Shown: in pieces, positions 66 through 46,855 of the stretch
Numbering within the stretch: position 1 is the first letter of the stretch
Layout of the letters: each line of letters starts with the position of its first letter
Assembly: GCA_964501605.1 (NCBI GenBank)
Contig: CAZCTB010000065.1
Location: 1 to 55,948 of the forward strand
Origin: an uncultured Candidatus Peribacteria bacterium
GTDB lineage: Bacteria > Patescibacteriota > Gracilibacteria > Absconditabacterales > Absconditicoccaceae
Length of the DNA stretch: 55,948 nt
Direction: 5' to 3'
The notes under the pieces: generated by a model
What the model saw: the letters and a program-made list of their open reading frames with translations, nothing else
The model's database searches: none
Told to the model about the DNA's origin: nothing
Translations under genes and position numbers: made by a program

Positions 66-401
66 ATGTGATTAATGCACTTAGAGTGAACAGAACAATT
101 TAAAAAAGAAGTACTAGAATTTGATTGAGTAGTACTTATAGATTTTTGGGCAGAACGATGTGGTCCATGTAGAATTTTAGGTCCAGTATTGGAAGAATTA
201 GCTGCAGATAATGAATGAAAAAATGTAAAAATTATCAAAGCTAATGTAGAAAGTCCAGAAAATTGACCATTGGCGCAAAGTTTTCAAGTGAGTTCTATTC
301 CAGCAGTATTTTTGGTAAACAAATGAGAGGTGGTAAAACCCCTTATTGGCGTAAATCCCAAAGATGTTTATCAAAAAGAAATAGATGCTTTGTTAGGTTA
401 A
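66..401 (+). CDS. trxA: Thioredoxin
   Basis: Table-25 translation gives ...VVLIDFWAE-[CGA]-CGPCRILGPVLEEL...IPAVFLVNKGEVV... This is the thioredoxin fold with a (W)CGPC active site whose W position is a CGA codon. Several in-frame TGA read as Gly. A hairpin plus T-run follows. Confidence 0.9.
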
Positions 402-35311: not shown

Positions 35312-36640
35312 TTATTTTTTGACAAAAAGTTCACTAAATTTTGTTTTATTATTTTTATACAATCTACTTAAATATCCAGACAATAAACCAAATGGTATAA
35401 AAAATAAATAATTTACCATACTATCCTCAAATACATGTAGAAATAGTCCAATGAATAGTAATAAACTTCGTCACATATATAATCTTTGCCAATGTAATAA
35501 TGCCATTTCTTCTTCTGCAGATCTATTTCATTTGTCAAATTCTAATTTGATATTTTTAAATATTAATAATATTTGAAATATTACTATTGCCCAAATTATA
35601 AATCATACTGTACCAATATCTAACATTATTTGCATAAAATAATTTTCTGGCAACATGTTTCATTCATGATGTATTGCAGGTCATGATGTTCATAATCAAT
35701 GTCATAGTGGGTTGTTTATTATTTCTCAAATATATCATAATTTAGCAGTTACATGTCCTATTGTGGATTCATATTTCAATAAACTCAGTCAGATTATTCA
35801 CAATATTAATCAAACTAATATTCATACAGAAATTTTCTTATTTTTTTTAATTCGATTTTTTGTTAACAATACAAATATCAAAACCATACCAATTATAGCT
35901 GCTCTAGATAGAGTAAGCGCAATTGCAAGTATTCGCAATAATACAAACAAAATATTTAAGTTTTTGAAAGGATTTTTAATTATGTTTGTAATTTTTTTTA
36001 TTCAATTTCATCGCCATAAAAGTATTAATGGTAAAAATGCTACTAATAAATATCCATAATTGTTTGGTCCAGAAAATAATCATTGCCATCTAGTTGTTCA
36101 TTCAAATCCTGTTAGATAGTAAATTGGAGGATTAGCTCCAAAATAAAAATCATCAAATTTTCCATATCCTATGTTCATAAATATTTCTGGTTTTATTATT
36201 TTCATAATTTGCCAAAGAAAACCAAACAATACAATTCATATCAAAAAATACTGAAACCAGTTTATTTGTTTCTTGTTTAGCTTTTTCAATCATACAAATC
36301 ATACAAAACTTGCAGTCAAAAATATTAGCAAATAGAAAAATCAATATTTTATACCTATCATCATGTTGCTAATAGATTGTCATGCTAGCAAAGATATTCA
36401 TAAAGAAAATAGTATTAATACCACAAATCGTATTCGTACATTTTTCCATTTTTTCAAACAATCTTTTACTTTTTTTAAGTTTCATACAAAAGCTGCCAAC
36501 ACAAAAATCAGCCACAACAAATCTCTTATCAAAGATATAATTATTTGTGATTCTCATCAAAGTATTCCATATCACACTACAGTTACGATTATATGATAGA
36601 GTGCTATTAGTCACAAAAATCCTCACAAAAACTTTTGCAT
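35312..36640 (-). CDS. O-antigen ligase / Wzy_C-family polytopic membrane protein
   Basis: GLFSGPNNYGYLLVAFLPLIL, LTLSRAAIIGMVL, GHGLGTSGPA and ENYFMQIMLDIGTVGFI. I scanned all 443 codons and found no TAA/TAG. The ORF-track pieces in this region are off-frame artefacts. Confidence 0.82.
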
Positions 36641-36725
36641 ATAACTTGCTTGAAAAAGATATAAAAACAAATATAACAATTTTATATATACTATGTTATA
36701 ATGTACAGTTTTAAATTGCATCTGT

Positions 36726-36837
36726 GTCATTGCGAGTTGACTGTCATTCTGAGTGGAACGTAGTGGAATCGAAGAATCTAGTGTTTTGATATACTACGTT
36801 TCTATTTGTAATGGATTCTTCGCAGGCTCAGAATGAC
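36726..36837. repeat. GTCATTCTGAG-family palindromic element, full-length copy (MITE-like)
   Basis: gtcattgcgag..gtcattctgagtggaacgtagtggaatcgaagaatctagtg....ggattcttcgcaggctcagaatgac. Terminal inverted repeats lie in a divergent promoter region. Confidence 0.85.
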
Positions 36838-36914
36838 CCTAGCATTGTTGTCTGGTTTTGTACAGCACAGTGACAATTACAATTAGCATATTATTATTCT
36901 CACAAAAAAAAACA

Positions 36915-37880
36915 ATGAAAAATAAATTGACAGTCATTATAGCAACTAGACCAAATATTCAAAATATTAAATGAATATTTCATTCTTTGGATATTCAGAC
37001 TTTTCAATATTTTAAAGTAATACTTTTGATAGATACAAAACTCCAAAAAGAGGAGTTTGAAAATCTTAAAAAAGAAGCTCTAAAATGATTAAAAAACATT
37101 TCAAAAAAAATCAAATTTGTGTCCAATGTAAATACAGATTTCAAACCACAAAACTGAGTAAGTTATGTTAGAAATTATGGTATCAAATTAGCTGACACAG
37201 ATTTTATAAACCTTTTTGATGATGATGAATTGTTTGATTCAGATTATCTACAGACATCTTTTGATCTTTGGCATGAAATTAAAGGTTGAAAAACCCCCCT
37301 TAAAAAGGGGGGTAGGGGGGGTTGATTTATTCTGGTTCCCACGCTTATGTTTAGAAAAACTTGAGAAATACAAAGCCAATGATTCGACTATTATAATTTT
37401 TGGACATCTAGACCACATGCTTTGTGGCTCAAAGAAAATCAAAAATTATCACAAATCCAAATGTATTCTTGAAACTCTCTTTTTGGTCCGACAAAAATAT
37501 TTCAAGAAGTTTTATTCGATAAAAATCTTGATTTTGTCTATGAAGATTTGGAATTTACATACAGAATATACAAAGCATGATATCCTATTTTTGTCACAAG
37601 TGAATTACTGTTGTACCACATGGAAAGAGATAAAACATTATTAGAACATGCCCGAGTTTGATCTAAATTTGCAGCATATAGAAAAGCAAAGCATAGAATA
37701 TTGTTTGTTAGAAAAAATTGAACATTATTACAAAAAATAAAATTTTATTTACTTGGATTTCGAGCTCAACCTCTTCGACTAAGTTTCAAAATTATTCGTT
37801 ATTGAAAAAAAAGAGAGATATTACCTCTCATATTTTCTTTGTATCATGGGACTTGGGATGGGTTGATTTGTAAAAAATAA
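36915..37880 (+). CDS. Family 2 glycosyltransferase with an in-frame GC-run insert
   Basis: LTVIIATRPN, FINLFDDDE, FGPTKIFQEVLFDKNLDFVYEDLEFTYRIYKAGYPIF. Frame verified codon by codon across 37200-37440. The 142-aa standard-code ORF 37216-37644 is in the wrong frame. Confidence 0.82.
37293..37322. repeat. GC-run hairpin element in frame in the GT2 gene
   Basis: accccccttaaaaaggggggtagggggggt, read as TPLKKGGRGG. Followed by cccacgcttatg, which resembles ccccgcttatg at the uvrC insert. Confidence 0.7.
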
Positions 37881-38092: not shown

Positions 38093-38974
38093 ATGACAAA
38101 ATTACCATTAAATGAACAAGCGAATTCAATTCGTAATATTACTTTTTCTAAAGATAAAGAAAAAGATCATGAAATTAAAAAAGAAATGATATCTGTTTTG
38201 AAGGAAAAGACAGATTATAAAAAAGATGAAAAAACTAGTAAAGCAAAAAGAGAGAGATGGGCAAAAATTAGAGATTTAGCTTGAGATGATCCAGAGAAGA
38301 TAAAACAATTAAAAGATGTTTTGTATACAGAAGAAGCAAAACAAGAAAAATCCGAATCCAAAGAAACACTTCTAGAAACAGCTCAATCAAAAAATAGAGA
38401 TAGTATGCTTTCTTATGCACAAGAAAAAGATACAGAACATGCTGAAAGGATAGCGGGGCGACTATGAACTATCAACGAACTTCGCGCGAAATGAATAATA
38501 AATGACTCATCAGAATGAGTAAATGTGAAAGGATTATGTTCATTTGCAAGTACAGAATCACATAATAAGGTCCTAGAGGAAAATTTCTGAAATAAAGTAA
38601 AAGAACCATTTGATTGGGAAAATCATGCGTGAAATAAATCAAAATTAAATACAGTTAGAAAAGATGATGTAGATAAAAAAATGAAGAAATGATTGAAGTG
38701 AAACTATAAATTAGGATCAAAAGAATTTATAGAGAATACACTATTTCCATGGATTGAACAGAAATTTGAATGAGTGAAAAATCAAGATGATAAATTATAT
38801 ATCTTACAACTAATCAATCCAGATCTATTTACACGATTATGGTTGGATAGTGTAGATTCCACTTGACATTCTCGCCAGGAAGTCAAATTGAGACGCAATG
38901 TAGACTATAGATTCTTCAATGAGTTCGACTATGTTTATATTAGATGAGTTCTTTTCTTGGTATGAAATGCATAA
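38093..38974 (+). CDS. DGR target (variable) protein, 293 aa
   Basis: The last 32 codons are the VR. The C-terminus ...FT-[CGA]-LWLDSVDSTGHSRQEVKLRRNVDYRFFNEFDYVYIRGVLFLVGNA resembles the end of C-type-lectin-fold DGR targets. Confidence 0.8.
38870..38964 (+). repeat. DGR variable repeat (VR)
   Basis: 95 nt that align without gaps to the reverse complement of 40773-40867. There are 16 mismatches, 15 of them opposite template adenines. Confidence 0.88.
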
Positions 38975-38986
38975 AAAATAATGGTT
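38969..38986 (+). repeat. 18-bp direct repeat, left copy (gcataaaaaataatggtt)
   Basis: Identical 18-mer at 40965-40982. This copy overlaps the target gene stop codon. Confidence 0.85.
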
Positions 38987-39090
38987 TACATACGAAAATG
39001 GAGCATATCCCTGCAGTATTGCGGGGTTTTCTTAGATGAAAAAACAGGATGTATTATTATCTCTTCATCCCTTTATCTCTTTTTGTGTTT

Positions 39091-39429
39091 TTAAGAGTGA
39101 CGATGTCGTCAAGTTAGTTGTTTTCCTATCGTCTCCATATGTGGCTGAAGTGAAACAAACTCTTCTAAAGAAATACAGTGTAAATCTCTCATCAATCTCA
39201 ATAAAATATGGATCAATTCTGTTTTTCATCTAGCTGTATCAAGATATCTTTTTCTATCCTCACGTTGTGTGTTTGCTTTGAAAATAAGAATAACCAATTG
39301 AGACGTTTCCTCAAAAATACTCTTTCAAAGAGTATTTTTGTAGTTTTTTGGCATCTTTTTCAATAAACGACTAACTGTAAGCAGTAGTTTATAGCATTCT
39401 TTGTACAGAGGTAGTTCAGTGTATAGCAT
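39091..39429 (-). CDS. DGR accessory variability determinant (Avd-like four-helix-bundle protein), 112 aa
   Basis: MLYTELPLYKECYKLLLTVSRLLKKMPKNYKNTLGKSIFEETSQLVILIFKAN...ELIHILLRLMRDLHCISLEEFVSLQPHMETIGKQLTG. Starts 19 nt after the RT stop. Exactly 113 codons. Confidence 0.72.
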
Positions 39430-39448
39430 ATCGATAGTGTATAAAAGA

Positions 39449-40666
39449 CTAAAAGTATTCTAGTTTTTTTCGTGACTTAATTTCTGCTTTGCGTAGTCTT
39501 CTAGTGCGAGGTATGACTTTTGTATATTTGTTTTTGCATATTATCTTATTTGCTAAAAATGGTGGCAATGACTGTAGTACTTTCTTTCTAATTTTGTATG
39601 AACTGTGATGTTTTATCATCCCTAAGTATGAGTTGATCATTGCTATCACTTTTTGTAATTTTTCGTATGTGTTTACATCTTTTGACGTGATTTTGCGGAG
39701 CTTTTGTTGCCAACGTCAAAGAGCCTTCTTTTGTATATACGTGCGATATGGCTTTATCACAGCACCACAGAACTGTACTCATTTACTATAGTGTTGGAGA
39801 TATATTTTTTTTGGATGTAGTGTCAGCTGAAGCTCTTGACTAAGAAAATTTCTGATAGATACGATACATGACTGTAAATATTCTTTATCAGGATGTACTA
39901 ATACAAAATCATCCATATATCTTCAGTAGTGGTGTATTTTTAATACACGTTTGATATACATATCTAATTCATGGAGATATACGTTTGCAAATAGTTGGCT
40001 AGTGAGATTTCCAATAGGTAATCATACTCATGGTGAACTATGAAAAAGAGATTTATCAGGAGGAAGTCATGATCGATTATCTACTGATCATACATGTTTG
40101 TAATCTTGTGTGGGATCATGATAAATAACATCTTTTAAGAGTTTTTCTCAATAAGTATATGGTAAATATGGATATTCATTATCCCAGTAGTCTTTATATT
40201 TTTCAATTTCTTTTAATAAAAGCCTTTCTAATATTTTTTTATTTATAGCCATAAAATATCATTTGATATCTAGTTTTAATATATAACAATTTTGTTGATA
40301 ATTCTGAGAACATGATCTAATATGCTTGTCTATACGATTTACACCAAAATGTGTTCATTTTCCGACTCTGCATGCATAATTGTCGTATATAAAAATTCTT
40401 TCAAAAAAAGGTGAAATGATAGTATATATGAGATGATGTACGATGCGATCACGTACATGAGCAGCGAAAATTTCCCTTTGTACTGGATCATATATGATGA
40501 AACAACGATATGTACTGATACAATATGTTTGGTTTTCTAATTCTCTTGTTAGTTTCAGTAATTCTTTTTCATGTTCTAGTTCAAAAGCAAGAATGCTTTT
40601 TGTAGACTTATTGCATCTTAGATTTTTCCAAGCTATGAATACATGATATAATAAAGTACTTTTCAT
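39449..40666 (-). CDS. DGR reverse transcriptase (405 aa)
   Basis: IYDPVQREIFAAHVRDRIVHHLIY, YACRVGKGTH, GLPIGNLTSQLFANVYL (the SQ-containing motif typical of DGR RTs) and YGRYMDDFVLV (YxDD). Two ORF pieces are in frame and joined by TGA. Confidence 0.92.
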
Positions 40667-40772
40667 GGTATATATTAGAATAATATAAGGATTAGAGACT
40701 TATAAAATTTTATTAAAAAAAAGAGTAGACTATTTCAATAACCTACTCAATTTATTCATCTCTAAGCGTTTT

Positions 40773-40867
40773 CATACCAAGAAAAGTCCTCATTTATTAT
40801 TATCATTGTTGTTCTCATTGAAGTTTCTATTGTTTACATTGCGTTTCAATTTGACTTTCTGGCGAGA
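40773..40867 (-). repeat. DGR template repeat (TR), sense on the minus strand, about 105 nt upstream of the RT start
   Basis: The sense strand reads tct cgc cag aaa gtc aaa ttg aaa cgc aat gta aac aat aga aac ttc aat gag aac aac aat gat aat aat aaa tga gga ctt ttc ttg gta tg. It is rich in AAY codons. Confidence 0.88.
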
Positions 40868-40964
40868 TATAAAGACATTGCTAGATTATTCTTATCTACA
40901 AACGTTCATACGAGAATAAATATGAATTAAGTACTACAGACAAAACGCCTGTGAATGTCTAAAC

Positions 40965-40982
40965 GCATAAAAAATAATGGTT
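40965..40982 (+). repeat. 18-bp direct repeat, right copy (gcataaaaaataatggtt)
   Basis: Identical to 38969-38986. Preceded by ...tgtctaaac, which reads ..C L N A stop, like the target's ..V G N A stop. Confidence 0.85.
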
Positions 40983-41159
40983 AATTTGTTCGGACTGAAG
41001 CCATATAGGTTAGAAATGTTTCTTTTGATCCTTGTCTAGCAAGAACTACCTTCAGTAACTGACTATGATAAGATATACAATTTATTATTTGTTTCAATAG
41101 AACTATTGTTCATGGTATTTATGCTTTCCTGATATTTAAAATAATAAAGTAAATTGTTG

Positions 41160-42158
41160 TTATTCCAGATTCCTCACCACCTCTTGCATTTTCAATATTT
41201 TCTTTTGATAAGGATATACTTTAGTTCTAGTTCACAAGAAATTAGATATCAAAAACAAATGCAATCTAGTACTGATAACTATTTCAGCTTTTGAAATTTT
41301 TGTAGCAAATTTTTGAAAATCTTCTTCTCGATCCAAAATTTCAAATCTATCTTCCATTTTACAAGTCTGTTTTATTCTTTTATAGTAATTCATATCACTA
41401 TAATCATCGTTTCTTCATTTGGCTACAGGCACATATAGTATCTTATATCATTCTTCCAAATAATATTTTATGTCCTTGATTATATCGTCCAAAAAATGTT
41501 CTCCATTTTTGTTTACATTTACTATGATATATTTTCATTTTTTCAATTTTTCGTTTTCCAATGCATGCCAATTGAAAGCAAAATAACTAGTATCCATAAA
41601 AAATTCTGCATTTTCAAATCCATATTTTTTCAGTTCATACACACTTTCCAGGTCTCTAGCGTATACATAACTTACTCTCTTCATTAAATAATCAAAAAGC
41701 TTTTTGTTCTTTTCTTTTTTTGGTACCTGTATTCCACCCATTAGATAAATGTTTGGTTTTTGTTTCAAACAAGGGAATATAGAAACCAATCGATACCAAT
41801 AAGTACTAGGTACCTCTTCAGTCAATATTTCTCCTCAACCAATTATTATACTATCTACTTCTTTATACTTTTTCAAAGTTCTGCTATTTTTATCTCTGAT
41901 GAATTTCCAAAAGGATCTAAATCATTTTGGTATTTCTCTCAAAAATGTAATATCTTCTATATCAGCAAACTGCACCAAAAATTTTTTTAACCAATTAATA
42001 TTGTAAGCAGATATATATATTTTCTTACCCTGTTCTTGTAATAACTGTATAGTTCCCAAAAGTATTATTTCATCTCACATGTTTTTGTAAGATCGATTAC
42101 CTACTATCAAAACCTTATCTCAATCTATTTTTAGTTCTTTACCTAGACCTAGATCCAT
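41160..42158 (-). CDS. Polysaccharide pyruvyl transferase (CsaB-like)
   Basis: VLIVGN.SYKNMGDEIILLG, DSIIIGGGEIL, VYARDLESVYELKKYG, ISTRLHLFLIS. 333 codons. ORF piece 41535-41825 is in frame. Confidence 0.78.
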
Positions 42159-46342: not shown

Positions 46343-46430
46343 GGAGAGGTGCCAGAGTGGTCGAACGGAGCTCACTGCTAACGAGTCGTCCTTTACGGGA
46401 CCGCGGGTTCGAATCCCGCCTTCTCCGCCA
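46343..46430 (+). tRNA. tRNA-Ser (anticodon GCU), CCA encoded
   Basis: GGAGAGG acceptor pairing with CTTCTCC, D-arm GCCAGAGTGGTCGAACGG, anticodon loop CT-GCT-AA, long variable arm CGTCCTTTACGGGACCG, T-arm GCGGGTTCGAATCCCGC, then GCCA. Confidence 0.88.
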
Positions 46431-46536: not shown

Positions 46537-46782
46537 ATGATTAAGTGATTTGTTTATATATTGGAAATGAAAAATTGAAGATATTATATTTGAAGTACAA
46601 ACAATATAGAAAGAAGATTAGCAGAACATAATAGATGAATTGTAAAGTCCACAAAGAATAATAGACCATTAAAATTATTATTCAAAAAGGAATTTGAAGA
46701 TTATAGCTCTGCTTTAAAGAAAGAATTATCATTAAAAAAACAAAAAGACAGAAAGGCAGTAGAAAGATTTATGGCTTTGTAG
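46537..46782 (+). CDS. Small GIY-YIG nuclease-superfamily protein (81 aa)
   Basis: MIKGFVYILEMKNGRYYIGSTNNIERRLAEHNRG...NRPLKLLFKKEFEDYSSALKKELSLKKQKDRKAVERF. Its last four codons and TAG overlap the first 10 nt of tRNA-Met. Confidence 0.8.
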
Positions 46783-46846
46783 CTCAGTTGGTTAGAGCGC
46801 GCCTCTCATAAGGGCGAGGTCGGCGGTTCAAATCTGCCCAAAGCCA
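46773..46846 (+). tRNA. tRNA with CAU anticodon (elongator Met, or Ile2 if lysidine-modified); no encoded CCA
   Basis: GGCTTTG/CAAAGCC acceptor, GCTC-AGTTGGTTA-GAGC D-arm, CGCCT-CTCATAA-GGGCG anticodon arm, GGCGG-TTCAAAT-CTGCC T-arm. G1:C72 and the anticodon stem argue against an initiator. Confidence 0.85.
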
Positions 46847-46855
46847 AATTAAAAT

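What the first reader, a model, noticed from the sequence alone, without database searches (positions are those of the whole stretch)
38093..40982. Complete diversity-generating retroelement: target/VR, Avd, RT and TR
A 95-nt VR forms the last 32 codons of the 293-aa gene (38870-38964). It aligns without gaps to the reverse complement of 40773-40867, the TR. Of 16 mismatches, 15 lie at TR-sense adenines (A to G or T), the hallmark of DGR mutagenic retrohoming. The one exception is a G to T in codon gga to gtt. The TR is packed with AAY codons: it encodes ..NVNNRNFNENNNDNNKGG.., while the VR reads ..NVDYRFFNEFDYVYIRGV... The adjacent 405-aa RT carries the DGR-type motif LPIGNLTSQLFANVYL and YMDDF. 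A 112-aa four-helix Avd-like gene follows the RT by 19 nt. GC-containing hairpins lie just downstream of both the VR (39009-39026) and, in sense orientation, the TR (GAGTAG..CTACTC, about 40722-40747). The VR ends ..GVLFLVGNA, like the GFR(L/V) tail of C-type-lectin-fold DGR targets. DGRs are known to be common in CPR bacteria. What is worth following here is the target itself, a K/E-rich protein of unknown function, in an organism with two codon reassignments: the TR contains TGA Gly codons.
Basis: partly seen in the sequence, partly recalled or inferred. Interest (0 to 1): 0.85.

Follow-up and report, generated by a model that had tools for sequence, protein, structure and literature searches.

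The report
Active DGR with target-complementary leader RNA
This is a complete, recently active diversity-generating retroelement in a recoded candidate-phyla bacterium. It mutates the tail of a protein of unknown fold, and its template RNA carries a conserved stretch complementary to the DNA right next to the site it rewrites.

Summary
VR 38870-38967 (+) matches TR 40867-40770 (-) without gaps, with 16 mismatches, 15 of them at TR adenines (p about 1e-5).

- **RT and Avd.** The RT's best solved relative is the Bordetella phage DGR RT. Avd passes Pfam's bAvd threshold.
- **Genetic code.** TGA=Gly and CGA=Trp are both supported in the window.
- **Activity.** Related metagenome loci carry identical TRs but VRs that differ almost only at TR-adenine positions, so the element has been active recently.
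- **Target.** It belongs to a tiny orphan family. A confident model of its C-terminal domain matches no solved or viral fold, so the C-type-lectin suggestion is not supported.
- **New here.** The TR sits in a roughly 350-nt non-coding RNA unit, running from a promoter-like site through a 195-nt leader and the TR to a terminator hairpin. It is conserved in five lineages that sit in different genomic contexts.
- **Leader complement.** A 22-nt leader segment is the reverse complement of the 22 nt immediately after the VR. The two co-vary: six base pairs change on both sides, and cognate duplexes are the most stable.
- **Interpretation.** I propose, as inference only, that this segment addresses the RNA-linked cDNA to its target.

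The DGR itself is a known kind; the layout and leader make it a new variant.

The parts
38093..38974 (+). Target gene, 293 aa (TGA=Gly, CGA=Trp). It has a K/E-rich helical N-terminal part and a conserved C-terminal domain of about 190 aa that ends in the VR.
   Evidence: Intact ORF only with table 25. Homologues end ...GLFLV(G/Q/K)N(A/V). AF2 model pLDDT 78.7, C-terminal domain about 90.
38870..38967 (+). Variable repeat (VR), the last 32 codons of the target.
   Evidence: 98-nt ungapped match to the TR; 15 of 16 mismatches at TR adenines.
38965..38986 (+). VR-flanking segment ('DS', IMH-like), AAATGCATAAAAAATAATGGTT. It covers the last two codons, the stop codon and 12 nt of 3' UTR, and is complementary to the leader segment.
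   Evidence: Direct repeat D4, 21/22 identical to 40961-40982. Duplex -26.4 kcal/mol, z -8. Co-varies with the leader.
39009..39036 (+). Hairpin CCCTGCA-GTAT-TGCGGGG plus T-run after the target. It looks like an intrinsic terminator and sits where the DGR hairpin is expected.
   Evidence: The stem differs but is kept in L001, L005, L179 and L187.
39091..39429 (-). Avd accessory protein, 112 aa.
   Evidence: Pfam bAvd 46.9 bits, cut-off 40. NCBIfam DivGenRetAVD 51.8 bits, below its cut-off of 80.
39449..40666 (-). DGR reverse transcriptase, 405 aa.
   Evidence: RVT_1. Best PDB match is BPP-1 bRT 8ub7, E 5e-35. IGNLTSQ and YMDD motifs. Relatives sit next to A-biased TR/VR pairs.
40715..40748 (-). 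Hairpin GAGTAGGTTATT-GAAA-TAGTCTACTC plus T8 just after the TR. It is terminator-like and sits where an Avd-binding stem-loop would be expected.
   Evidence: L088 and L180 have a different sequence at the same place but still a hairpin plus T-run.
40749..40769 (-). TR 3' flank (IMH*-like), AACGCTTAGAGATGAATAAAT.
   Evidence: It diverges from the VR flank right after the shared GAAA. It pairs only weakly with the leader segment: -14.4 kcal/mol, z -2.
40770..40867 (-). Template repeat (TR), A-rich with 10 AAY codons in the VR frame.
   Evidence: 100% identical in L004 although the VR there differs.
40868..41063 (-). Non-coding leader of the TR RNA, about 195 nt. It comprises a 5' multi-helix domain, the segment complementary to the VR flank, and a two-hairpin domain closed by AGACAU/AUGUCU.
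   Evidence: Conserved in W/L004, L001, L005/L181, L088 and L180, which lie in different genomic contexts. 18 pairs changed on both sides versus 8.5+-1.9 in shuffles. No long ORF. No Rfam family.
40961..40982 (-). Leader segment AACCATTATTTTTTATGCGTTT, the reverse complement of the 22 nt after the VR.
41070..41097 (-). Promoter-like TTGAAA-16 nt-TATCTT, ending 7 nt before the conserved GTCAG start of the leader.
   Evidence: A similar -35/-10 pair at the same distance is visible by eye in L001, L088 and L180. Promoter-like matches are not enriched in this AT-rich region, so the start site is inferred.

Best explanation
This is a complete diversity-generating retroelement (DGR) that has been active recently in natural populations.

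How it works. A non-coding RNA of about 350 nt is made from the minus strand, running from a promoter-like site at about 41097 through the leader and the TR to a terminator hairpin at about 40715. The RT and Avd, encoded just downstream, copy the TR part into cDNA and misincorporate opposite template adenines. That cDNA replaces the last 32 codons (the VR) of the convergently oriented target gene. The result is a diversified surface patch on the C-terminal domain of a protein of unknown fold.

Shown: the parts, the adenine-specific pattern, TR invariance combined with VR hypervariability between samples, and conservation and covariation of the leader RNA.

Inferred: the transcript ends and the biochemical steps, which are taken from the Bordetella phage model.

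Further inference, my probability about 0.35-0.4. The 22-nt leader segment pairs with the sense strand immediately 3' of the VR, on single-stranded DNA at a fork or R-loop. It would then sit directly next to the place where the RNA-linked cDNA must anneal. That would mark the VR rather than the TR as the recipient, which is the role assigned to IMH.
For: Parts and pattern.
- VR/TR anatomy and adenine bias.
- RT closest to BPP-1 bRT; its relatives are DGR RTs.
- Avd passes Pfam's threshold.

Activity.
- L005 and L181 are 99.6% identical outside the VR and have identical TRs, yet differ at 25 of 98 VR positions, 24 of them TR adenines (p 6e-11).
- The window and L004 share a 100% identical Avd-RT-TR-leader, yet differ at 19 VR positions, 17 of them TR adenines.
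- Own-TR/VR pairs in L001, L004, L005, L180, L181 and the composite L088/L187 all show the same bias.

RNA unit.
- The leader is conserved in five lineages with different neighbouring genes.
- 90% of cells are paired. Eighteen pairs changed on both sides, against 8.5+-1.9 in shuffles and 2-6 in slid controls.
- A terminator-like hairpin is kept with a different sequence in other lineages.

Leader:VR-flank pairing.
- Duplexes are -26 to -31 kcal/mol, z -6 to -8. The leader pairs with the TR's own flank at only -13 to -15, z above -2.
- Six of 22 pairs changed on both sides, against 1.7+-1.1 in shuffles, 0 of 500 reaching that.
- In the 5x5 cross matrix each leader binds its own lineage's flank best; W and L001 share the same leader sequence and are indistinguishable.
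- The flank predicted from L088's leader was found in L187, an independent sample of the same lineage.
- A Peribacteria DGR (L009, RT 48% identical) has an 11-bp complement at the same place in a leader of the same architecture, 94 nt before the TR against 93 nt here.

Literature. The cDNA stays attached to the RNA and prefers to pair with the sense strand when that strand is single-stranded. How IMH is recognised remains open (PMC12875486).
Against: - No reads could be mapped, so variation within this population is not shown.
- The NCBIfam Avd score is below its cut-off.
- The RNA's folding energy is no better than that of shuffles, z -0.15.
- Only five lineages are available, and one of them is a composite of two samples.
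- In an unbiased scan of 116 DGR loci the background z reaches -3.4, so L005 and L180 are not outliers by energy alone.
- The covariation count uses hand-excised segments joined by an artificial linker.
- L004 has lost the VR flank through a 44-nt deletion yet carries a diversified VR.
- Related leader-type DGRs L069, L070, L184 and L186 show no significant complement, and neither does BPP-1.
- Transcript ends are inferred. No experiment bears on the pairing.
Confidence: 0.9

Rival explanations
1. The leader segment acts only in cis. It pairs with the TR's own 3' flank to close the TR into a loop, like the upstream:downstream 'cPRT Stop' duplex of the Bordetella phage DGR RNA. Its match to the VR flank would then be a by-product of IMH/IMH* homology.
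For: RNAalifold pairs leader columns 106-122 with the TR 3' flank. GCGUUU:AAACGC is kept in all five lineages. Upstream:downstream duplexes were reported for 207 of 278 DGRs (bioRxiv 10.1101/2023.10.23.563531). The VR flank, the TR flank and the leader segment are visibly homologous.
Against: The cis duplex is weak: -13 to -15 kcal/mol, z -1.4 to -2.0. Its variable part is only 75% paired, with one pair changed on both sides. The same leader segment pairs with the VR flank at -26 to -31 kcal/mol, with six pairs changed on both sides. So selection appears to follow the VR flank, not the TR flank.
Confidence: 0.2
2. The pairing is RNA with RNA. The DGR RNA leader binds the 3' UTR of the target mRNA, between its stop codon and terminator, and regulates the stability or translation of the target transcript, as an antisense small RNA would.
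For: The segment lies within the transcribed 3' end of the target, upstream of its terminator hairpin. The two single mismatches in the window and L001 are G-U compatible.
Against: The position, abutting the exact end of VR/TR identity, is what a homing function predicts and is not needed for regulation. The same position is kept in L180, where the intergenic region is only 36 nt. No expression data exist.
Confidence: 0.15
3. The two 22-nt copies are DNA-level direct repeats. They would be scars or substrates of the recombination that moved the Avd-RT-TR cassette next to the target, kept alike by gene conversion, with no role in the RNA.
For: They are direct repeats flanking about 2 kb. The unit sits in different genomic contexts. 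It is 100% identical between the window and L004 while the flanks are 74-97% identical, so it has moved or been exchanged.
Against: The right-hand copy is internal to the conserved leader, 80 nt from its end, not at a boundary. No integrase or transposase lies in the unit. Twenty-two bp is short for recombination-based homogenisation. In L009 the complementary pair lies on one strand only 150 nt apart, so it does not flank the cassette.
Confidence: 0.08
4. The element is a decayed DGR relic or a different retroelement such as a retron or a group II intron RT. The repeat pair would then be a chance or ancient duplication.
For: NCBIfam lists group II and retron models among the RT hits.
Against: Those scores are far below their cut-offs: 112 against 300, and 59 against 235. 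The bRT match is 27 orders of magnitude better than any group II RT. No Rfam intron or retron RNA is found. All ORFs are intact. VRs differ between near-identical genomes at TR adenines.
Confidence: 0.02

Closest known systems
Bordetella phage BPP-1 DGR (mtd-avd-TR-brt), the prototype
   Same: It has an RT of the same clade (E 5e-35 to 8ub7) and an Avd. The TR/VR pair has adenine-only differences, the VR lies at the 3' end of the target, and a hairpin follows the VR.
   Different: The gene order is leader-TR-RT-Avd on one strand with the target convergent on the other. A 195-nt non-coding leader replaces the avd coding sequence upstream of the TR. BPP-1 has no significant complement between its upstream RNA and the VR flank (9 nt, p 0.12). 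The target is not Mtd-like. The TR is 98 nt against 134 nt.
DGRs of candidate phyla radiation bacteria (survey of Wu et al. 2018, PMC5758913)
   Same: The host is a CPR-type organism, the cassette is small, and the VR is C-terminal. DGRs are known to be common in these lineages, and cassette architecture varies.
   Different: That survey's commonest CPR architecture is TR-(avd)-RT. Here it is TR-RT-avd with a convergent target. The target family matches none of the families searched. A leader complementary to the VR flank was not found in the few DGR papers I read. I did not search for such a report systematically.
'cPRT Stop' duplex and Avd-binding stem-loop of the DGR RNA (Handa et al., bioRxiv 10.1101/2023.10.23.563531)
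   Same: Sequence upstream of the TR can pair with sequence downstream of it, and a stem-loop follows the TR.
   Different: Here the upstream strand lies 93 nt before the TR, brought near it by a closed two-hairpin domain. It pairs far better with the VR's flank than with the TR's own flank.
Ca. Peribacteria DGR in locus L009 (CAZXON010000002.1)
   Same: The RT is 48% identical and the core is leader-TR-RT-Avd. The leader has the same architecture: a flank-complementary segment, then a closing helix around two hairpins, then the TR. An 11-bp complement to the sequence right after the VR ends 94 nt before the TR.
   Different: The target lies upstream on the same strand. The complement is shorter, and the target protein is different.

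Membership tests
Diversity-generating retroelement (DGR) | Reverse transcriptase of the DGR clade with the (I/L)GxxxSQ motif | tested here: met
   LPIGNLTSQLFANVYL and YMDDF are present. The best PDB match is BPP-1 bRT, E 5e-35, against 1e-8 for group II RTs. Relatives at 43-51% identity sit beside A-biased TR/VR pairs in about 110 of 160 loci.
Diversity-generating retroelement (DGR) | Near-repeat pair whose differences fall at adenines of one copy (the TR) | tested here: met
   15 of 16 mismatches at TR adenines, p 1.4e-5.
Diversity-generating retroelement (DGR) | VR inside a protein-coding gene; TR non-coding and invariant | tested here: met
   The VR is the last 32 codons of the target. The TR frame has no ORF context. 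The TR is identical between the window and L004, and between L005 and L181, while the VRs differ.
Diversity-generating retroelement (DGR) | Accessory variability determinant (Avd) | tested here: met
   Pfam bAvd 46.9 bits, above the cut-off of 40. NCBIfam DivGenRetAVD 51.8 bits is below its cut-off of 80.
Diversity-generating retroelement (DGR) | IMH / IMH* at the 3' ends of VR and TR, and a hairpin after the VR | tested here: inconclusive
   A 20-nt identical 3' segment is followed by diverging but related flanks. A hairpin lies at 39009-39026. Function cannot be tested from sequence. The segment is not GC-rich as in BPP-1.
Diversity-generating retroelement (DGR) | VR hypervariability in nature confined to TR-adenine positions | tested here: met
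   Between samples: 24 of 25 differences (L005 v L181) and 17 of 19 (window v L004) fall at TR adenines, with the rest of the gene 99.6% and 96.9% identical. Within-sample read data were not available.
Diversity-generating retroelement (DGR) | Adenine-mutagenic cDNA synthesis by RT-Avd on the TR RNA | not testable with these tools
   Needs biochemistry or a reconstituted assay.
C-type-lectin-fold DGR target (Mtd / TvpA type) | Sequence membership of a CLec-type target family | tested here: not met
   No Pfam hit for the protein or for any of 7 family members. No PDB sequence hit for the protein or the family profile.
C-type-lectin-fold DGR target (Mtd / TvpA type) | Structural similarity of the VR-bearing domain to solved CLec targets | tested here: not met
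   AF2 model pLDDT 78.7, C-terminal domain about 90. Foldseek best E is 3.4 against the PDB and 1.6 against BFVD. Caveats: the model had to use database translations with W at the 12 TGA codons and R at the 2 CGA codons, and no AlphaFold DB was on hand.
BPP-1-type DGR RNA elements | Duplex between sequence upstream and downstream of the TR (cPRT Stop) | tested here: inconclusive
   The invariant 6 bp GCGUUU:AAACGC is kept, plus a poorly kept extension. The duplex is no better than shuffles.
BPP-1-type DGR RNA elements | Stem-loop just downstream of the TR | tested here: met
   Hairpin 40748-40723. A hairpin at the same place with a different sequence occurs in L088 and L180. Avd binding is not testable.
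Retron / group II intron | RT scoring above the family threshold, with the cognate RNA | tested here: not met
   Group II 112 bits against a cut-off of 300; retron 59 against 235. No Rfam hit in the region.
Absconditabacterales genetic code (UGA=Gly; CGA/CGG=Trp) | In-frame TGA at Gly positions and CGA at Trp positions | tested here: met
   There are 628 in-frame TGA codons, and long ORFs appear only with table 25. TGA aligns with a Gly in a homologue (HAWN v HTGN). CGA aligns to the W of thioredoxin WCGPC and to an invariant W in RT relatives. The reassignment is described in PMC13092985.

The most novel reading that the evidence does not exclude
In this DGR lineage the target site is recognised by RNA. 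A 22-nt guide in the leader of the TR RNA would base-pair with the sense strand immediately 3' of the VR. Guide RNA followed by RNA-linked cDNA would then lie end to end on the single-stranded target, like an RNA-primed Okazaki fragment. This would give a physical basis for the IMH function, that is, the choice of the VR rather than the TR as recipient. That choice is still unexplained for DGRs. It would also make the homing step reprogrammable by changing the guide.
Probability: 0.35. Interest if true: 0.85.

Novelty: new variant of a known kind. Interest (0 to 1): 0.6.

Why it matters
DGRs are well described and common in candidate-phyla bacteria, so the element as such is not a surprise.

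Two things go beyond a routine annotation. First, the diversified protein belongs to a very small family. Nineteen clusters were found among 1.84 billion representatives, and the members retrieved look recoded. Its confidently modelled variable domain matches no known fold, which would add a scaffold to the few that DGRs are known to diversify.

Second, how the mutagenised cDNA finds and replaces the VR is still open (PMC12875486). A conserved, co-varying complementarity between the TR RNA leader and the DNA abutting the VR gives a concrete, cheaply testable hypothesis for that step. If it holds, it also offers a handle for retargeting DGR-based mutagenesis tools.

Tried and rejected
- **Table 11 ORFs.** They fragment every gene, so I re-translated with table 25 and CGA=W in scripts.
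- **Structure with the correct translation.** The first AF2 run, with 6 sequences, gave pLDDT 46 and was discarded. The second, with 19 sequences, was usable.
- **Rfam.** No family in the region at either threshold.
- **Remnant ORF hypothesis.** I tested whether the right-hand 22-nt copy ends a remnant ORF, or whether the leader is a decayed avd or a copy of the target. No ORF and no similarity beyond the 22 nt were found.
- **Generality of the complement.** An ungapped scan of 114 DGRs gave a maximum of 10 against 19 in the window. The energy scan shows a background tail. BPP-1 is negative. L182 is only marginal, p 0.02-0.03.
- **More family members.** Three IMG/VR scans, using two leader DNA patterns and the target profile, found only chance matches. 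The RT homologues P0014 and P0040 turned out to be canonical same-strand DGRs with other targets.
- **Replication direction.** GC skew only tracks gene strand.
- **Palindrome inside avd.** The perfect 14+14 palindrome at 39312-39340 is not kept by compensatory change, so it is probably a coding coincidence.
- **Folding energy.** MFE stability of the RNA is no better than shuffles.


Full report
**1. The observation**

Read with table 11 the region is a litter of short ORFs. With TGA as a sense codon the window resolves into long genes. Three of them are a 293-aa gene at 38093-38974 (+), a 405-aa gene at 40666-39449 (-) and a 112-aa gene at 39429-39091 (-), 19 nt after it.

The last 98 nt of the plus-strand gene up to its penultimate codon (38870-38967) align without gaps to the reverse complement of 40770-40867. 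There are 16 mismatches. Fifteen are at adenines of the minus-strand copy (10 A>T, 5 A>G) and one is G>T, next to a mutated A. The repeat finder lists this as the longest inverted repeat in the region. A degenerate pattern of its 5' end occurs only at these two places in the window. With 44 adenines in 98 positions the bias has p = 1.4e-5. The repeat is 3 nt longer than stated.

**2. The proteins**

- The 405-aa protein has an RVT_1 domain and the motifs LPIGNLTSQLFANVYL and YMDDF.
- Among all PDB sequences its best match by far is the reverse transcriptase of the Bordetella phage BPP-1 DGR (8ub7, E 5e-35). The next matches, group II intron RTs, stand at 1e-8.
- Group II, retron and defence-RT models of NCBIfam score far below their cut-offs.
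- Scans of one genome per species and of JGI metagenomes returned 160 loci encoding relatives at 43-51% identity, from many phyla. A simple self-comparison found an adenine-biased repeat pair next to the RT in about 110 of them. The protein therefore sits inside the DGR RT clade.
- The 112-aa protein exceeds Pfam's bAvd threshold (46.9 against 40 bits). It stays below NCBI's stricter Avd model (51.8 against 80).

**3. The genetic code**

- The window has 628 in-frame TGA codons, 100 TGG, 78 CGA and 1 CGG.
- A TGA codon of the target corresponds to a standard Gly in a homologue.
- The CGA at codon 31 of the thioredoxin gene (66-401) aligns to the Trp of the WCGPC active site. The last four residues of my query there were mistyped, which does not affect the motif.
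- The CGA at RT residue 198 aligns to a Trp that is invariant in six relatives.
- Both reassignments are already described for Absconditabacterales (PMC13092985). This is context, not discovery.

**4. Is it active?**

I could not map reads, but related contigs from other samples serve the same purpose.

- The target has only about eight relatives in 5.8 billion proteins. Their contigs all show the same layout, and each has its own TR/VR pair with adenine-only differences.
- L004 (JGI 3300001336) has an Avd-RT-TR-leader stretch 100% identical to the window. Its VR differs from the window's at 19 positions, 17 of them TR adenines.
- L005 (NCBI) and L181 (JGI) are 99.6% identical over 840 nt of the target outside the VR and have identical TRs. 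They differ at 25 of 98 VR positions, 24 at TR adenines (p 6e-11).
- This is what ongoing mutagenic retrohoming produces. A relic would not look like this.

**5. The target**

- There is no Pfam, NCBIfam or PDB sequence match, for the protein or for a family profile.
- A profile search of 1.84 billion cluster representatives finds 19 proteins. The 13 whose sequences I retrieved are rich in the W that marks mistranslated TGA. Nearly all of these, and of the homologues found earlier, end ..GLFLV(G/Q/K)N(A/V) after a variable stretch.
- With those 19 sequences AlphaFold gives pLDDT 78.7. The N-terminal K/E-rich part is a set of long helices of modest confidence. The C-terminal 190 residues form an alpha/beta domain at about 90, with the VR forming its last strands.
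- Foldseek finds nothing with E below 1 in the PDB or in BFVD. The C-type-lectin suggestion is therefore not supported.
- Caveat: the tool only accepted database translations, with W for Gly at 12 sites, and no AlphaFold DB was available.
- The protein has no obvious signal peptide (sequence).
- Its N-terminal module recurs on other proteins with different, apparently also DGR-diversified C-termini (P0005 in L182; P0008).

**6. The TR is part of a conserved non-coding RNA**

Aligning the sequence upstream of the TR (minus strand) shows about 195 nt as well conserved as the TR itself. It begins at GTCAG (about 41063). The neighbouring genes differ between lineages: a polysaccharide pyruvyl transferase here, ribosomal proteins in L001, RhuM in L005/L181, AbiEii in L180, another gene in L088.

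- A TTGAAA-16-TATCTT promoter-like site ends 7 nt before it. Comparable hexamers at the same distance are visible in the other lineages. Such matches are not enriched here, so the start site is an inference.
- Just after the TR comes a hairpin plus T8 (40748-40715). L088 and L180 have a hairpin plus T-run there with unrelated sequence.
- RNAalifold on five lineages gives a consistent structure: a 5' multi-helix domain, a two-hairpin domain closed by AGACAU/AUGUCU, pairing of the constant 5' and 3' ends of the TR, and the terminal hairpin.
- 90% of cells are paired. Eighteen pairs changed on both sides, against 8.5+-1.9 in shuffles and 2-6 in slid controls.
- Folding energy alone is unremarkable (z -0.15), and Rfam has no matching family.
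- Upstream and downstream RNA around the TR is known to be essential in the BPP-1 element (bioRxiv 10.1101/2023.10.23.563531). Here the upstream part is a dedicated leader, not the end of avd.

**7. The unexpected part**

The repeat finder reported a 22-nt direct repeat, 38965-38986 and 40961-40982, 21/22 identical. The first copy starts at the last 3 nt of VR/TR identity and covers the last two codons, the stop codon and 12 nt beyond. The second lies inside the leader. On the TR RNA it reads as the reverse complement of the first.

- It is not a boundary of the unit, because the leader continues 80 nt beyond it. No ORF or wider similarity accompanies it.
- Both copies are present in L001 and L005/L181. 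In L180 (RT 59% identical) both have diverged, but together.
- On an alignment of the excised segments, 94% of cells pair. Six of 22 pairs changed on both sides, against 1.7+-1.1 in shuffles (0 of 500), and slid registers give at most 2.
- The duplex between leader segment and VR flank is -26 to -31 kcal/mol (z -6 to -8). The same segment pairs with the TR's own 3' flank at only -13 to -15 (z above -2).
- L088 has leader and TR but no VR on its contig, and I noted what its VR flank should be. L187, a contig from another sample whose VR matches L088's TR (15 of 16 mismatches at A), has a flank that pairs with L088's leader at -26.8 kcal/mol. That is the best partner in a 5x5 cross matrix, in which each lineage's own flank is the best partner for its leader. 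The exception is W and L001, which share the same leader sequence.
- A Peribacteria DGR (L009, RT 48% identical, target on the same strand) has an 11-bp complement at the equivalent place in a leader of the same architecture, ending 94 nt before the TR (93 nt here).

**8. Limits of that evidence**

- There are five lineages, one of them composite.
- In an unbiased scan of 116 DGR loci the window family tops the list (z -7.2 to -3.3), but the background reaches -3.4. The case therefore rests on position, covariation and cognate specificity, not on energy alone.
- Some relatives with the same leader type show no significant complement, nor does BPP-1.
- L004 has a 44-nt deletion that removes the flank and the stop codon.

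**9. Mechanism**

The established part, taken from the BPP-1 model, is this. RT-Avd copies the TR RNA into cDNA with errors opposite adenines, and the cDNA replaces the VR.

For the leader segment I favour an addressing role. The cDNA is antisense and, in BPP-1, stays attached to the RNA. It pairs preferentially with the sense strand when that strand is single-stranded (PMC12875486). The leader segment is complementary to that same strand, directly 3' of the VR. Guide RNA and cDNA would then lie end to end on the target. Only the VR, not the TR, has the matching flank. This is inference (probability about 0.35-0.4).

The rivals are as follows:
- a purely cis structural helix like the cPRT Stop duplex;
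- antisense regulation of the target mRNA;
- DNA-level repeats left by cassette movement.

The cis helix is the weakest-supported helix in the fold. The DNA-repeat idea fits the evident mobility of the unit, but not the internal position of the copy or the L009 arrangement.

**10. Verdict**

The kind is known and common in these bacteria. The orphan-fold target, the leader-TR-RT-Avd layout with a convergent target, and the co-varying leader/VR-flank complementarity make it a new variant that is worth an experiment.

Noticed in passing
window 39074-41500 versus L004: The Avd-RT-TR-leader stretch is essentially identical between the window and L004. The flanking genes are only 74-97% identical, for example about 17% divergence at 41500-42145. 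The DGR unit seems to have been exchanged recently between diverged strains. It also sits in unrelated contexts in L001, L005/L181 and L180 (next to PIF1 helicase, RhuM, AbiEii).
   Followed up: partly
L004:2955-2995 (equivalent to window 38965-39012): A 44-nt deletion between two TGCA microhomologies removes the VR flank, the stop codon and half of the hairpin. The target is extended by ..RSIAGFS. Under the addressing model this copy should no longer be diversifiable.
   Followed up: no
L001:8780-8871 versus L001:6865-6962: The TR is 6 nt (two AAY codons) shorter than its VR. This suggests slippage in the AAT-AAT run of the TR after the last homing event, or an indel made during homing.
   Followed up: no
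L005:4930-4935: The target has an in-frame stop codon (K*ETNES), whereas L181, 99.6% identical, has KSETNES. L005's target may be truncated or a pseudogene, yet its VR is diversified.
   Followed up: no
window 38093-38400; L182:7001-7852; P0008: The K/E-rich N-terminal module (..KRERW.KIR.LAGDD.EKI..LKDVLY..) recurs on proteins with other C-terminal domains that also look DGR-diversified. L182 has its own small DGR (RT 324 aa, no Avd seen) and lies next to T4SS-pilin and TraC-like genes. The module may be a shared docking or stalk part.
   Followed up: partly
window 66-401, codon 31 (156-158), and window-wide: CGA stands at the Trp of the thioredoxin WCGPC motif. There are 78 CGA and 1 CGG against 100 TGG in the window's ORFs, so nearly half of the Trp codons are reassigned CGA.
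   Followed up: yes
window 39027-39090: About 60 nt between the target's terminator hairpin and the end of avd (TTCTTAGATGAAAAAACAGGATGTATTATTATCTCTTCATCCCTTTATC) are conserved in L001, L005, L187 and partly in L179. Function unknown. A 65-aa table-11 ORF starting here runs antisense to avd and is probably spurious.
   Followed up: no
L009:3680-3837; L069, L184/L185, L186: Several CPR-type DGRs with a leader-TR-RT(-Avd) core share leader motifs (AGTAAAAGATCA, ACAAAG) and a two-hairpin domain closed by a helix just before the TR. This appears to be a conserved DGR leader RNA class. Rfam gave no family match for the window's own leader region; the other loci's leaders were not searched against Rfam.
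   Followed up: partly
window 39312-39340: A perfect 14+14 nt palindrome lies inside the avd coding sequence and was flagged as terminator-like. It is not kept by compensatory changes in L001 or L005, so it is probably a coincidence of coding.
   Followed up: yes
window 35312-37880 and 41160-42158: The DGR unit is inserted between a GT2 glycosyltransferase (with a large polytopic membrane protein upstream) and a polysaccharide pyruvyl transferase. That is, it lies inside a cell-surface polysaccharide locus.
   Followed up: partly
window 46343-46430 and 46772-46847: tRNA-Ser(GCT) and tRNA-Met(CAT) genes. No tRNA that would read UGA or CGA lies in this window.
   Followed up: no
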